Virus genome (UHGV): UHGV-1366603
From: a virus
Reading direction: 5' to 3' (one strand)
DNA: 64,000 bases
The position numbers were made by a program. Below, in pieces: positions 45,001 to 48,000 of the stretch (its first letter is position 1; each line of letters opens with the position of its first letter).

Positions 45001-48000
45001 TCTCGCCTTTACTGGCTGACAGAATGTTTGATTTCGGGATTAACGCAGGGCGTGCTAACTGTGTGAAATCGCTACAGCGTATTCTCAACGTGTTGAACAA
45101 CGAAGGTAAACTCTACGCGGACATCGATGTTGACGGTGGAATGGGGCCTAAAACGCTGGGTGCGTTGAACGCGTACCTGAAATACCGTAAAGATGAAGGG
45201 CTAAGCATTTTAATCTTTGCGTTAATCTCGCACCAAGTAACTTACTACACGGAAATCTCCGAGAAACGTAAGCGAAACGAGAAATACACCTACGGCTGGT
45301 ACGGCCGCGTGTTCAGAGAAATGGCAGATTATGCGGTAAAAGCGGGGTTAGTAAAATGAACTGGTTTGCTAAACTCTTAGCGTTATTGTGGAAAGCGTTA
45401 ACGTCTGGTCGAAAACGTAAAGACGAAAAACGTGGGCAAGAATTCTTCTGGTTTTTGTAAGGAAAGGTGTGGGTAATGGAGAAGCTTCAATATAAACGTT
45501 TAGATAATAAGTGGTTTGTATTAACGGAGGATTACCATTATCCGTTTACGTTACGTGAGATTTATCACGACCACGTACACTTAGACCGTGCGGTTTATTT
45601 AACGGGCGTATTACCTGACACGCAACTGTGGTTAACAGCACCGAAAGGGTTCGTAACGGACTTAGCGTCGATACCCGAACACTTACAGGGAATTTTCCAT
45701 CCCGACGGGCCTTGGGCACCGGCTGCGTGTATTCACGACTTGTTATACCAGAAATGCAGTACGGAACGTAGCTACCCTATGACACCCGGTGGTAACGTTT
45801 CTCGAATTATCGATAAAGAGTTCGCTGACTTAACGTTTCTGCGTATTATGCAGTCGTTAGAAATCTCACCGTATATCTGCCAAACGTTTTATAAAGCTGT
45901 TGTAGGTTTCGGTTGGGATGCTTACGTAGACCCTAACGCGAAACCGTCTTATTCCACTAACGACTACCGTACGTTAGATTACAATCGAAACTATTTGTTC
46001 GTTCGCGAGTTTAAGGAACCTGCTATTCCTGACCACGAACGTGTTGATATCACCACAGGTTGTCCCGTTAATGTCAAATACCTGAACATTAAACGGGCTT
46101 TTCTGTCTGGGAGGGAAGATGTTTCATCCAAATCCGAGTAATTTTAAAATCAAAGAGTTAGTACCACAATCGTACATCGCCAAATACGGCGATTCTGCAA
46201 TTCGGTTTATGAACCCGTTGTTAATGATTTCGCTACAACAGATTCGTAACCGTTTCGGCAGAATGGTGATTAACTCGTCTGCTGCGCAACAGCGTGGCCT
46301 AAGAACCTTAGACTTTTTCATCAACCAAGAAAAGCCTAAGGGCGGTAACTATAAACAACGTGCGTTACAACTCTACTCTGATTCAGGGAGTCAGCACAAG
46401 TTCGGCAACGCATTTGATGCGACTCTGTTAGATTCAACGGTAAAACAAGTCCACGATTACATCGCCGCCAATCCTGATGAGTTTCCGTTTATTCACTTTA
46501 TTGAATGCGACATCAGTTGGTTACATATCGATGTTCGTAACCAACCGAATATCACGTTCTGGTCACCGAATCGGGGTACTGTGAAAGTCGTGAAACAAAG
46601 CCCTATCGATTGGAGCGCCTTAGTTAAAATCTAAGCGCGTAATCCGAAACTTAGGGTGATTGTACCTTATTTTGTATAAACCGTCTTAGAACGCGTTCTA
46701 GCGCGTTTTACGGACAAAATAAACCTACCCTCCTGCTAAGCAGGAGGGTATTTATTATTCTACCGGGTGCAACATAGTGCCGGTATCTGGAATGCTGCCT
46801 TCGTGACATCTGAAGAACGTTACACCTTTACCTTCACCCGTTTTGTAGTTGACGGTAGAATACGCAAACGTTGGGGTTTTCGACAGTAACCCGTTTACAC
46901 GGTAATAGCGCTCACCGGTAACGACGTTTAAGTTACCGTCCACCTTACCTAACAGGTCTTTATAAAGTTGCGGAGATTCAATTTTACCTTCGTCCCATGT
47001 AGCGACCCAATTCGCCCCTGTATCCATGACTAACACCGAAAGGGGCATCAGTTTTAGACTAGACGGTACGGGTTTAAAATCGTCGAATTCTTGAGAAGCA
47101 CCTGTACAGGTGTAAATGACCATATCGTGTTGGTCAACAGGTACGGTGGAGAACTGACCTTCTGCGTTCGGCTGAATAGCACAACTTGCCAATGTCATTA
47201 CAAAAGCAACGACCACGAGAATGCGTTTTAGCATAATCTCACCCTTATTAAAATTAAGAAAAATTATTTTTTCAGGTTAGCGCCTACTGCCAACCGTCAT
47301 ATCTATATTTTAGTAAATGTCTAAAATAACTTTCTTATGCAATCCACCCCTACCACTTACGAGGTAAAAACGATGGCTAAAGCCTTCAATCAGCAGCTTA
47401 TCGAAGCTGTAAAAGCCAAAAACCCTGAAACTGCTTCTAATCTAACCGTAGAAGACGTTGACTTTGGTGCCGTAGAAGCACATAGCGGAAACGGTGGCCG
47501 TAACACCAAAGTTACGCTGACTGCAAAAGAAGAAAGTGCTAACTTTACTGGCAGTAAAGAATTCCACTACACTCGTCTGGCTTCTCAAGATCTGATCGGT
47601 GCCAAAGCTTACGAACAAGCCGGTAGCCTCGATCTGGAAAACTCTGTCATCGTAACCAAACTCAACGAAGAAATGGTTACTAAAGGTTATACCGATGACG
47701 CTTTCGCTGAAGGCGAACTGACCATTGAGAAAACTGAAGGGGATAGCGGCGCTAAAGTTTACACCGTTAAAGTAAACGATGCACACATTAAATTCCTGGC
47801 TGGTACTATTGCCGTCTTCACTTATTCCAACCCAGCTCCTGAGAAGGTAGCACTGAGCGGTCTGGAAGGTGAACTTGATGGCTTCACTGCACCGGGTGTC
47901 GGTGGCTAAGTAAGCGAAATCGGGGGGGGGTGACCTCCCCCGATATTTCTCTATCTCGTTTTATTAAGGACCTAAGATAATGGCCGCTACTAACCAGATG

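What the first reader, a model, noticed from the sequence alone, without database searches (positions are those of the whole stretch)
46755..47234. Lone reverse-strand outer-membrane lipoprotein gene next to the lysis cassette
This is the only minus-strand gene inside a 43-kb plus-strand block, with its own bidirectional terminator and a lipobox (LASC). Lone lipoprotein genes in virulent phages are often superinfection-exclusion or receptor-masking factors (as T5 Llp blocks FhuA); alternatively it could be an o-spanin-like lysis component, although its orientation argues against co-expression with the endolysin.
Basis: partly seen in the sequence, partly recalled or inferred. Interest (0 to 1): 0.55.

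Follow-up and report, generated by a model that had tools for sequence, protein, structure and literature searches.

The report
Conserved jumbo-phage outer-membrane lipoprotein gene
This is a real, stand-alone gene for a secreted, lipid-anchored small beta-barrel protein found only in giant "nucleus-forming" phages of enteric bacteria; its function is untested, and the best guess is that it alters the infected cell's envelope to keep out or neutralise further phage, not that it bursts the cell.

Summary
Window 46755..47234 (-) encodes a 159-aa protein with a canonical lipoprotein signal (lipobox L-A-S-C18, Ala at +2). It is the only lipobox ORF in 64 kb and the only convincing minus-strand gene in the 2856-48510 plus block, and it ends at a strong two-way terminator.

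The window is a new ~224-kb relative of Salmonella phage SPN3US. The gene is the orthologue of SPN3US gp159 and Goslar gp088 (phrog_9559, no function assigned). The family is tiny (14 clusters among 1.84 billion representatives) and every genome-placed member is phage-borne. All full-length members keep the lipobox and two further cysteines.

The predicted fold is a soluble ~10-strand beta barrel with no specific structural match.

The o-spanin reading is rejected. There is no partner gene, the domain is folded rather than proline-rich, and SPN3US carries a better spanin-like pair elsewhere. Proximity to the endolysin is not conserved.

A conserved TATGAC plus 5' hairpin, also present upstream of the SPN3US tail sheath gene, suggests late rather than early expression, unlike T5 Llp.

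Best guess, at low-moderate confidence: a periplasm-facing exclusion or envelope-masking factor, Llp-like in logic but not a member of that family.

The parts
46755..47234 (-). Lipoprotein CDS, 159 aa plus stop; orthologue of SPN3US gp159 (SPN3US_0159 / ACQ60_gp107), Asesino gp174 and Goslar gp088; member of phrog_9559
47184..47234 (-). Signal peptide, residues 1-17 (MLKRILVVVAFVMTLAS)
   Evidence: modelled as a helix over residues 2-16
47181..47192 (-). Lipobox L15-A16-S17-C18. Cys18 is the predicted lipidated first residue of the mature protein. Residue +2 is Ala, so outer-membrane sorting is predicted by the Lol +2 rule.
   Evidence: L15 and C18 are invariant in 14 relatives and C18 is invariant in 15 more distant ones
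46800..47153 (-). Predicted all-beta barrel domain, residues 28-145, about 10 strands, mostly pLDDT 83-93. It contains the conserved SPQLY and RYYR motifs.
47106..47108 (-). Codon of Cys43, invariant in the family and located in the first long strand. It is inferred to form a disulfide with Cys143.
   Evidence: the disulfide is inferred, not shown
46806..46808 (-). Codon of Cys143, invariant in the family and located in the last strand
47238..47246 (-). Shine-Dalgarno-like AAGGGTGAG, 5 nt upstream of the ATG
47296..47301 (-). TATGAC, a promoter-like motif 62-67 nt upstream of the ATG. It is conserved in all 12 SPN3US-group lineages examined, while Goslar has TATG only.
   Evidence: The same motif with a hairpin lies 42 nt upstream of the SPN3US tail sheath gene, and the motif is enriched in SPN3US intergenic DNA. 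The phiKZ late promoter core is T-3 A T G+1 (PMC7598289).
47275..47295 (-). Hairpin directly after TATGAC (GGTTGGC / 7-nt loop / GCTAACC). Its position is conserved and its sequence changes in a compensatory way between lineages. It is the probable 5' end of the mRNA.
46726..46750 (.). Bidirectional intrinsic-terminator hairpin shared with the convergent M15-like gene
46605..47950 (.). Mosaic block of low nucleotide identity (55-73%) to the sister lineage L011/L012, while the flanks are 81-95% identical. It covers the lipoprotein gene, the shared intergenic region and the divergent DUF7941 gene 47337..47909.
47337..47909 (+). Divergently transcribed neighbour, a DUF7941 protein of 190 aa. It is the orthologue of SPN3US gp160, an abundant head protein of 'paralog family B'. 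It is context, not shown to be functionally linked.

Best explanation
The gene encodes a non-virion lipoprotein that the host machinery (Sec, Lgt, LspA, Lnt, Lol) exports, lipidates at Cys18 and anchors in the inner leaflet of the outer membrane. A short flexible linker then holds a disulfide-stapled, soluble beta barrel of about 13 kDa in the periplasm. It is transcribed as its own unit, from a TATGAC promoter with a 5' hairpin to a bidirectional terminator, probably by the phage's non-virion RNA polymerase alongside late genes.

[quoted passage not shown] This would make the infected cell and its post-lysis debris non-productive for further jumbo-phage adsorption or entry. That is the same logic as T5 Llp, Cor and Rtp45, carried out by an unrelated and larger protein.

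Shown here: the gene is real, and the signal, lipobox, conservation, phage-only distribution, autonomous transcription signals and predicted fold class are as described. Inferred: outer-membrane location, the disulfide, late timing, and the exclusion function with its target.
For: - Canonical lipobox with a non-Asp +2 residue, conserved in every full-length family member down to 26-31% identity.
- Two further invariant cysteines lie in the first and last strands. This fits an oxidising periplasm and parallels the terminus-constraining Cys11-Cys58 of Llp (PMC9586334).
- The protein is not in the SPN3US virion: gp156-159 are absent from the mass-spectrometry table that lists gp155 and gp160.
- The gene has its own promoter-like motif and its own terminator in both the SPN3US group and Goslar, whatever its orientation. 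This moron-like layout is typical of host-modifying genes.
- In Goslar it follows the P1-S-like tail fibre and its assembly protein. In a metagenomic relative it sits beside a foldon-containing fibre-like gene. For comparison, llp is adjacent to the T5 receptor-binding protein gene.
- The family is restricted to jumbo phages of Enterobacterales, with no bacterial homologue.
- It was exchanged as a block with its neighbour between otherwise near-identical lineages.
- The spanin alternative fails its defining tests.
Against: - There is no experimental datum for any member.
- There is no sequence or specific structural similarity to Llp, Cor or Rtp45, and those proteins are about 6-7 kDa.
- The promoter-like motif matches the class seen before the SPN3US tail sheath gene, and the AT-rich presumed-early motif is absent. 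Characterised exclusion proteins are made early.
- The protein is 50-60% identical across phages of different host genera. SPN3US uses flagella as its receptor and Goslar has a P1-S-like tail fibre. Receptor-specific masking therefore fits poorly, and a conserved target would be needed.
- The constant neighbour in the SPN3US group is a head protein, not a receptor-binding protein.
- dN/dS shows purifying selection, with no arms-race signal.
- The structure model is moderate: best pLDDT 79.6, the other four models 62-64.
Confidence: 0.35

Rival explanations
1. Lysis accessory. A late-made outer-membrane lipoprotein helps or times envelope disruption, for example as an atypical o-spanin whose inner-membrane partner is encoded elsewhere, or as a factor that weakens or tethers the outer membrane at lysis.
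For: - Most phage-encoded lipoproteins of Gram-negative hosts are o-spanins (general knowledge).
- In the window the gene lies 1.4 kb from a GH108 endolysin and next to an M15-like peptidase.
- The promoter-like motif is of the tail-sheath (late) type.
- The second lipoprotein family that forms the spanin-like pair in SPN3US was not found in the three near-complete IMG/VR genomes of the window's own lineage. This lipoprotein could therefore be the only one there.
Against: - No type-II membrane protein gene is adjacent, overlapping or embedded, and the only small TMD ORFs in the window are 22 kb away.
- It is opposite in strand to the endolysin, and a terminator lies between them.
- The mature domain is a folded 142-aa barrel, not a short proline-rich segment.
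- There is no C-terminal TMD, so it is not a u-spanin.
- SPN3US, Asesino, phiEaH2, Wellington and Huxley relatives carry both this gene and a separate spanin-like lipoprotein family. In SPN3US that gene directly follows a TMD + coiled-coil protein gene.
- The endolysin adjacency is lost in Machinavirus and Goslar.
- A 34-aa cationic amphipathic ORF overlapping the endolysin stop is an alternative candidate for outer-membrane disruption.
Confidence: 0.15
2. Periplasmic inhibitor of a peptidoglycan hydrolase, like T4 Spackle or MliC/PliC in logic. The anchored barrel would neutralise the tail-associated lysin of superinfecting virions, or stray endolysin, and so prevent lysis from without.
For: - The gene is convergent with, and shares a terminator with, an M15-like peptidase (phrog_894; weak Peptidase_M15 hits on the L042 homologue).
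- The SPN3US orthologue of that peptidase, gp158, is reported in virions but not in tailless heads (PMC5105663 main text).
- This pairing recurs in the window, L011, SPN3US and STsAS. In L042 the two genes lie about 2 kb apart with two ORFs between them.
- Lysis from without is seen with SPN3US at high particle numbers.
Against: - The phyletic patterns do not match. The peptidase occurs in 138 phage records, including CR5, EarlPhillipIV and many Vibrio phages that lack the lipoprotein. About 19 of the 27 Erwinia phage records that carry the lipoprotein lack the peptidase.
- Asesino, phiEaH2, Wellington, Machinavirus and Goslar keep the lipoprotein without the peptidase at the locus.
Confidence: 0.12
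3. Ligand-binding or envelope-remodelling barrel. A calycin/LolB-like lipid- or glycan-binding lipoprotein changes outer-membrane composition, stability or vesiculation during the long jumbo-phage cycle, without acting on other phages.
Confidence: 0.12

Closest known systems
T5 Llp (lytic conversion lipoprotein) and the related small exclusion lipoproteins Cor and Rtp45
   Same: [quoted passage not shown] Each is a lone gene set among virion genes, and Llp has a Cys pair constraining its termini (PMC9586334; PMC12685063). This is the best functional analogy.
   Different: - No sequence relation and no specific fold match.
- The mature protein is 15.6 kDa against about 6-7 kDa.
- Llp is made early, whereas this gene carries a late-type motif.
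- Llp-type proteins track one receptor, whereas this family is 50-60% conserved across phages of different host genera.
- In the SPN3US group its neighbour is a head protein, not the receptor-binding protein.
o-spanins (lambda Rz1, T4 PseT.2) and u-spanins (T1 gp11)
   Same: Phage-encoded outer-membrane lipoprotein with periplasmic cysteines. In this window it lies near an endolysin gene.
   Different: No partner i-spanin gene, opposite strand, folded barrel rather than a short proline-rich segment, and no C-terminal TMD. A separate spanin-like pair exists in SPN3US.
T4 Spackle and bacterial MliC/PliC lysozyme inhibitors
   Same: Periplasmic or lipid-anchored small proteins that block a muralytic enzyme. 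MliC/PliC are 8-stranded barrels. Here the gene abuts a virion-associated M15-like peptidase in several lineages.
Neisserial surface lipoprotein barrels (NHBA C-domain, TbpB/LbpB handle barrels, fHbp, HpuA)
   Different: Sequence identity is 6-8% and the scores are no better than for unrelated barrels. Those proteins are displayed on the cell surface by Slam (from memory), and nothing here indicates surface exposure.

Membership tests
Bacterial-type lipoprotein (Lgt/LspA substrate) | Signal peptide with a basic n-region, a hydrophobic h-region and a lipobox [LVI][ASTVI][GAS]C | tested here: met
   MLKRILVVVAFVMTLAS|C. Conserved in all relatives.
Bacterial-type lipoprotein (Lgt/LspA substrate) | Actual diacylglyceryl modification and signal peptidase II cleavage | not testable with these tools
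   Needs palmitate labelling or globomycin sensitivity.
Outer-membrane-sorted lipoprotein (Lol pathway, Enterobacterales) | No Asp at position +2 after the lipidated Cys | tested here: met
   +2 is Ala here and Ala, Val or Ser across the family. The sorting rule itself is established knowledge; the location was not measured.
phrog_9559 / SPN3US gp159 family | Significant full-length profile match | tested here: met
   E 9e-70 over residues 2-150. 54-61% identity to SPN3US, Asesino, phiEaH2 and STsAS orthologues in a syntenic position.
Llp / Cor / Rtp45 exclusion lipoproteins | Sequence homology to Llp, Cor or Rtp45 | tested here: not met
   A family profile against all PDB chain sequences found nothing better than E 0.12, and that hit was a signal-peptide match to TrwH. 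No Pfam or PADLOC hit.
Llp / Cor / Rtp45 exclusion lipoproteins | Small mature size (about 6-8 kDa) | tested here: not met
   Mature protein is 142 aa, 15.6 kDa, against about 6 kDa for Rtp45.
Llp / Cor / Rtp45 exclusion lipoproteins | Gene adjacent to the receptor-binding protein gene | tested here: inconclusive
   Met in Goslar (tail fibre plus assembly protein directly upstream) and fibre-like in L042. In the SPN3US group the neighbours are head paralog-B proteins and peptidoglycan hydrolases.
Llp / Cor / Rtp45 exclusion lipoproteins | Expression early in infection | tested here: inconclusive
   Only promoter motifs are available. The gene lacks the AT-rich presumed-early motif and carries the TATGAC+hairpin also found before the tail sheath gene. 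No transcript data were accessible.
Llp / Cor / Rtp45 exclusion lipoproteins | Blocks the phage receptor or phage entry | not testable with these tools
   Needs expression and adsorption/EOP assays.
Two-component spanin, o-spanin subunit | Gene embedded in, overlapping or directly following an i-spanin gene (N-terminal TMD plus periplasmic coiled coil) on the same strand | tested here: not met
   Neighbours are an M15-like peptidase (convergent) and a DUF7941 protein (divergent). The TMD scan finds no candidate nearby.
Two-component spanin, o-spanin subunit | Short, largely unstructured, proline-rich periplasmic segment | tested here: not met
   Predicted barrel of about 10 strands, mostly pLDDT 83-93 over residues 31-140.
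Unimolecular spanin (T1 gp11 type) | N-terminal lipobox plus a C-terminal transmembrane domain | tested here: not met
   The only hydrophobic segment is the signal peptide, and the C-terminus ...GTMLHPVE is polar.
MliC/PliC lysozyme inhibitors | Match to the family profile or a specific fold match | tested here: not met

The most novel reading that the evidence does not exclude
This small family (SPN3US gp159 / Goslar gp088) is the first envelope-acting exclusion system of nucleus-forming jumbo phages. It would be a late-made, outer-membrane-anchored beta barrel, structurally unrelated to Llp, Cor or Rtp45. Instead of masking one receptor, it would bind a conserved periplasmic step of jumbo-phage entry, such as the tail tip, an ejected protein or a conserved envelope complex. 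That would protect the infected cell and the released progeny across host genera.
Probability: 0.25. Interest if true: 0.65.

Novelty: new variant of a known kind. Interest (0 to 1): 0.4.

Why it matters
Nucleus-forming jumbo phages (Chimalliviridae) are studied intensively for what happens inside the cell. The literature searches run here found almost nothing on how they manipulate the cell envelope, compete with co-infecting phages or leave the cell: a 2026 review of jumbo-phage biology mentions neither lipoproteins, superinfection exclusion nor spanins.

This family has several useful properties:
- it is a compact, conserved and clearly exported protein;
- it occurs in two tractable models, SPN3US and Goslar;
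- so the question is directly testable by expression or knock-down.

If it is an exclusion factor, it would add a new fold and probably a new target to a class so far known only from small siphophage lipoproteins. It would also matter for designing jumbo-phage cocktails.

If it proves to be a lysis or envelope-stability factor, it would help to fill the gap in knowledge of how these phages breach the outer membrane.

The conserved TATGAC-plus-hairpin element is also a concrete candidate for the poorly defined late promoter of this phage group.

Tried and rejected
- Megablast of the locus against 50,697 phage records found no match. The phage is a new lineage, identified only at protein level.
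- Pfam, NCBIfam and PADLOC gave no family for the lipoprotein. PHROGs gave only an unnamed family.
- The profile search of PDB sequences found nothing.
- Literature on SPN3US plus lipoprotein, gp159 or spanin returned nothing relevant. The SPN3US infection proteome paper (PMC6384053) and the phiKZ transcriptome paper (PMC4178840) are not held. The supplement with the Goslar RNA-seq table is not held.
- A sigma-70 promoter scan was at or below chance and is irrelevant for phages with their own RNA polymerases.
- My interim idea that DUF7941 neighbours are tail fibres or receptor-binding proteins was rejected for the SPN3US group. Published virion mass spectrometry places that paralog family, including gp160, in tailless heads.
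- A dedicated partnership with the M15-like peptidase was rejected on phyletic grounds.
- An arms-race signature was not found: dN/dS is 0.03-0.22.
- Recent foreign origin was rejected: GC 46.0% against 45.4% for the window.
- I tried to locate the SPN3US spanin-like pair in the window's own lineage. It was not found in three IMG/VR genomes, but the pattern-based scan cannot prove absence.
- Distant members P0016 and P0017 are not in IMG/VR.
- TATG-plus-hairpin is not a general feature of intergenic regions in the window; there are only two cases.
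Full report

Window 46755..47234 on the minus strand is an ATG-initiated ORF of 159 codons. An AAGGGTGAG Shine-Dalgarno-like element sits 5 nt upstream. The N-terminus MLKRILVVVAFVMTLAS-C has the three parts of a lipoprotein signal and the lipobox L-A-S-C18, followed by Ala.

A six-frame scan for lipobox signals found this ORF and no other in the 64 kb. The plus-strand block runs from 2856 to 48510 (45.7 kb). All other minus-strand ORFs of at least 110 aa inside it overlap longer plus-strand ORFs, so the gene is indeed the lone convincing reverse gene. It does, however, lie only two genes from the minus block that starts at 48590.

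The hairpin at 46726-46750 was called as a terminator on both strands. It folds at -21.1 and -20.4 kcal/mol, with z about -5 against shuffles.

The gene is not an ORF artefact. It is conserved in about 55 phage genomes. Against 96-99% identical relatives it has dN/dS 0.03-0.22.

**2. What the window is**

No phage record matches at the DNA level. At protein level the window is a relative of Salmonella phage SPN3US (Seoulvirus) and Erwinia phage Asesino; a tail protein is 72-77% identical. Near-identical contigs of about 224 kb occur in metagenomes and in a Salmonella Agona assembly. These are nucleus-forming jumbo phages (Chimalliviridae) that carry their own RNA polymerases.

**3. The family**

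The protein is the orthologue of SPN3US gp159 (SPN3US_0159 / ACQ60_gp107) and Asesino gp174. In both it has the same position and the same reverse orientation. It belongs to phrog_9559, which has no assigned function.

- A word-indexed search of 5.8 billion proteins gave 13 clusters.
- An exhaustive profile search of 1.84 billion representatives gave only 14 hits.
- Among sequenced phages it occurs only in 233-251-kb phages of Erwinia, Salmonella, Escherichia and Proteus.
- The most distant genome-placed member, about 33% identical, is Goslar gp088.
- All full-length members keep the lipobox cysteine and two more cysteines (C43, C143), together with G73, R109, Y111, R112, S126, G133 and G135.
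- The gene's GC content equals that of the genome, so it is a long-resident gene.

**4. Structure**

AlphaFold2 with the 13-sequence alignment gives a signal-peptide helix and a low-confidence linker (residues 19-27). Residues 28-145 form an all-beta domain of about ten strands, with pLDDT mostly 83-93. The best model has mean pLDDT 79.6 and the other four have 62-64.

- Foldseek against the PDB has nothing at E<=1e-3.
- BFVD returns family members and a few uncharacterised phage proteins.
- No solved structure is related by sequence.

C43 lies in the first long strand and C143 in the last, so I infer a barrel-closing disulfide. The polar surface composition, the acidic pI (4.96) and the polar C-terminus argue for a soluble periplasmic barrel, not an integral membrane barrel.

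**5. Transcription signals**

In all 12 SPN3US-group lineages examined, the otherwise poorly conserved upstream region contains TATGAC, 31-70 nt before the start codon. In most lineages a hairpin follows directly, and its stem sequence differs between lineages: GGTTGGC, GACAAT, GACGA, GACAG, ACCCG. Goslar has TATG followed by a GGAA/TTCC stem, and its own terminator. Ten of the 12 sequences scored (11 SPN3US-group plus Goslar) have a perfect stem of at least 4 bp. For comparison, 15 of 201 TATG sites in the window have a hairpin of at least 5 bp.

In phiKZ the late promoter core is T(-3)ATG(+1), and early promoters are a conserved AT-rich motif (PMC7598289). This phage group has such a conserved AT-rich element:
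- CAGATATATATTACYTAGGTGAGAG occurs six times in SPN3US intergenic DNA, before small non-structural genes.
- Three exact copies of AGATAKATATTACCT occur in the window, at 15180, 36309 and 40364.

The lipoprotein gene lacks this element. TATGAC, by contrast, is enriched in SPN3US intergenic DNA: 12 of 66 copies lie in about 4.5% of the genome. One copy, with a GACC/GGTC hairpin, lies 42 nt upstream of the tail sheath gene.

I therefore infer an autonomous transcription unit of the late, non-virion-polymerase class. This is an inference from motifs. No transcript data could be reached.

**6. Neighbourhood**

In the window the order of genes is:
- DUF7941 x2;
- GH108 endolysin (44769..45359);
- a 34-aa ORF;
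- DUF1353;
- an M15-like peptidase (46119..46634);
- the terminator;
- the lipoprotein gene (reverse strand);
- DUF7941 (47337..47909);
- DUF7941 (47980..48510);
- then the minus-strand block with DUF4376 and two radical-SAM genes.

Across lineages, the constant neighbour within the SPN3US group is the divergent DUF7941 gene of about 180 aa. The downstream neighbour varies. It is the M15-like peptidase in the window, L011, SPN3US and STsAS. It is DUF1353 in Asesino, phiEaH2 and most Wellington-like loci. It is a 300-aa virion protein in Machinavirus. So 'next to the lysis cassette' is not a conserved property.

In Goslar the gene is on the same strand as its neighbours. It directly follows a P1-S-like tail fibre gene and a tail-fibre assembly gene, and it precedes a DUF7941 protein fused to an N4 gp65-like domain. 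In a metagenomic relative it is flanked by a virion protein and by a foldon-containing, fibre-like pair.

I first read DUF7941 proteins as fibres. Published SPN3US virion mass spectrometry shows otherwise. This 'paralog family B', including gp160 (the orthologue of 47337..47909, more than 300 copies per capsid), is present in tailless heads. gp156-159 are absent from that virion table, so the lipoprotein is non-structural. gp158, the M15-like protein, is reported as a low-abundance protein found in virions but not in tailless heads.

**7. Mosaicism**

Against the sister lineage L011/L012, nucleotide identity falls to 55-73% exactly over 46605-47950, which covers the lipoprotein gene, the intergenic region and the divergent DUF7941 gene. 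The flanks are 81-95% identical. In L012 both flanks encode proteins at least 95% identical, while the lipoprotein is 72% and the neighbour 58%. The pair has therefore been exchanged as a block at least once. This is a single event and could simply reflect adjacency.

**8. Testing the readings**

*Spanin.* No type-II membrane protein gene is adjacent or embedded, and there is no C-terminal TMD. The domain is folded. The strand is opposite to the endolysin, with a terminator between them. A genome-wide scan of SPN3US found a second lipoprotein (ACQ60_gp061, 180497-180976, proline-rich after the lipobox). It directly follows ACQ60_gp062, which has an N-terminal TMD, a coiled-coil-like segment and a proline-rich tail. 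This is a far better spanin-like pair, and its lipoprotein is conserved in Asesino, phiEaH2, Wellington and Huxley relatives. It was not found in three IMG/VR genomes of the window's own lineage, which leaves a small opening for the spanin reading. In addition, a 34-aa cationic amphipathic ORF overlaps the endolysin stop.

*Hydrolase inhibitor.* This reading is attractive because of the convergent M15-like, virion-associated neighbour. However, the two genes have different distributions, and there is no MliC/PliC signal.

*Llp-like exclusion.* This shares the general design: an exported, outer-membrane-anchored, non-virion protein encoded by a lone gene among virion genes, with a terminal Cys pair (PMC9586334; PMC12685063). 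It fails family membership on sequence and size. It is ambiguous on adjacency to a receptor-binding protein gene, and probably differs in timing. The 50-60% conservation across phages of different host genera points to a conserved target, not one receptor; SPN3US uses flagella and Goslar has a P1-like fibre.

**9. Verdict**

The finding is a genuine, conserved and uncharacterised jumbo-phage lipoprotein gene with its own transcription signals. [quoted passage not shown] The rivals are a lysis accessory (0.15), a hydrolase inhibitor (0.12) and a ligand-binding or envelope-remodelling barrel (0.12), with the remainder unknown.

It is not a member of any characterised family. As a kind, it is best described as a new variant of phage exclusion-type lipoproteins. 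Interest is moderate. Nothing here is mechanistically surprising yet, but the family offers an easily testable entry point into the almost unexplored envelope biology of nucleus-forming phages.

Noticed in passing
window 45356..45460 (+): A 34-aa ORF, MNWFAKLLALLWKALTSGRKRKDEKRGQEFFWFL, whose ATG overlaps the stop of the GH108 endolysin (ATGA). It has an amphipathic N-terminus, pI 10.6 and net charge about +4.5. It is called as a gene in relatives (Asesino gp172; L004 7775-7879), is 97% conserved in L011 and has dN/dS 0.04. It is a candidate small lysis peptide (disruptin- or holin-like). It has no PHROG or NCBIfam family.
   Followed up: partly
window 15180-15194, 36309-36323, 40364-40378 (+); SPN3US NC_027402 at 56299, 65418, 94244, 113991, 165692, 223282: A highly conserved AT-rich element, (TTTC)AGATAKATATTACCTAG(GTGAGAG), lies downstream of terminators and upstream of plus-strand genes. 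Seven of the nine TATATTAC copies in SPN3US are intergenic. It is probably the early (virion RNA polymerase) promoter consensus of this phage group.
   Followed up: partly
SPN3US NC_027402.1 180017-180976 (locus L022/L024): ACQ60_gp062 has an N-terminal TMD, a coiled-coil-like segment and a proline-rich C-terminus. It is directly followed by ACQ60_gp061, a 159-aa lipoprotein with lipobox LLTGC that is proline-rich after the Cys. Together they form an unannotated candidate two-component spanin (phrog_8719 / phrog_8165, both 'unknown function'). The lipoprotein is conserved in Asesino gp224, Stratton and Wellington-like phages.
   Followed up: partly
window 46119..46634 (+): A 171-aa protein carrying an SxHxxGxAxD ... 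H-I-D pattern that looks like an M15/LAS zinc-peptidase motif (motif assignment from memory, not tested). It matches phrog_894 'endolysin', and the L042 homologue gives weak Peptidase_M15_3/_4 hits. Its SPN3US orthologue gp158 is reported in virions but not in tailless heads. This phage therefore has a GH108 endolysin plus a probable tail-associated peptidase. Homologues are widespread in Vibrio phages, including KVP40.
   Followed up: partly
window 46605-47950 and 48405-49900: There is sharp mosaicism among otherwise close relatives. The lipoprotein + DUF7941 block and the DUF4376 / 190-aa / radical-SAM block switch independently between about 50-70% and 96-100% protein identity in different contigs (L004-L012).
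   Followed up: partly
window 24198..24410 and 24407..24604 (+): Two small overlapping paralogous ORFs (70 and 65 aa), each with one N-terminal hydrophobic segment and conserved cysteines. They are the only small membrane or secreted-protein candidates in the window apart from the lipoprotein. Function unknown.
   Followed up: no
window 46687-46700 (+): A perfect 14-bp palindrome, TAGAACGCGTTCTA, lies between the M15-like gene and the bidirectional terminator.
   Followed up: no
window 20232 (+) and SPN3US 229227 (-): Other TATG(AC)+hairpin sites exist. One is TATGTGAGAATTCTCAC, 40 nt upstream of window gene 20272..20541. Another is TATGACCATCAGGTC, 42 nt upstream of the SPN3US tail sheath gene. 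A hairpin starting at the presumed +1 may be part of late promoter or 5'-end architecture in this group.
   Followed up: partly
locus L006 (NCBI GCA_008917135.1, SKEP01000003.1, 224,834 bp): A near-identical phage genome is present as a single contig in a Salmonella enterica serovar Agona isolate assembly, and the 97% identical protein cluster is on record from 23 contigs. This suggests a carrier state or pseudolysogeny, or contamination of cultures by this jumbo phage.
   Followed up: no
window 43345..44704 and 47337..48510; Goslar L028 11344-13956: DUF7941 corresponds to SPN3US head 'paralog family B'. In Goslar gp086 the same N-terminal domain is fused to an N4 gp65-like 'non-contractile tail sheath' TIM-barrel domain. 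This hints that the domain is a capsid-attachment module carrying variable outward-facing domains (Hoc-like). A density at the centre of each hexamer on the outer capsid surface is reported for SPN3US (PMC7552025).
   Followed up: partly
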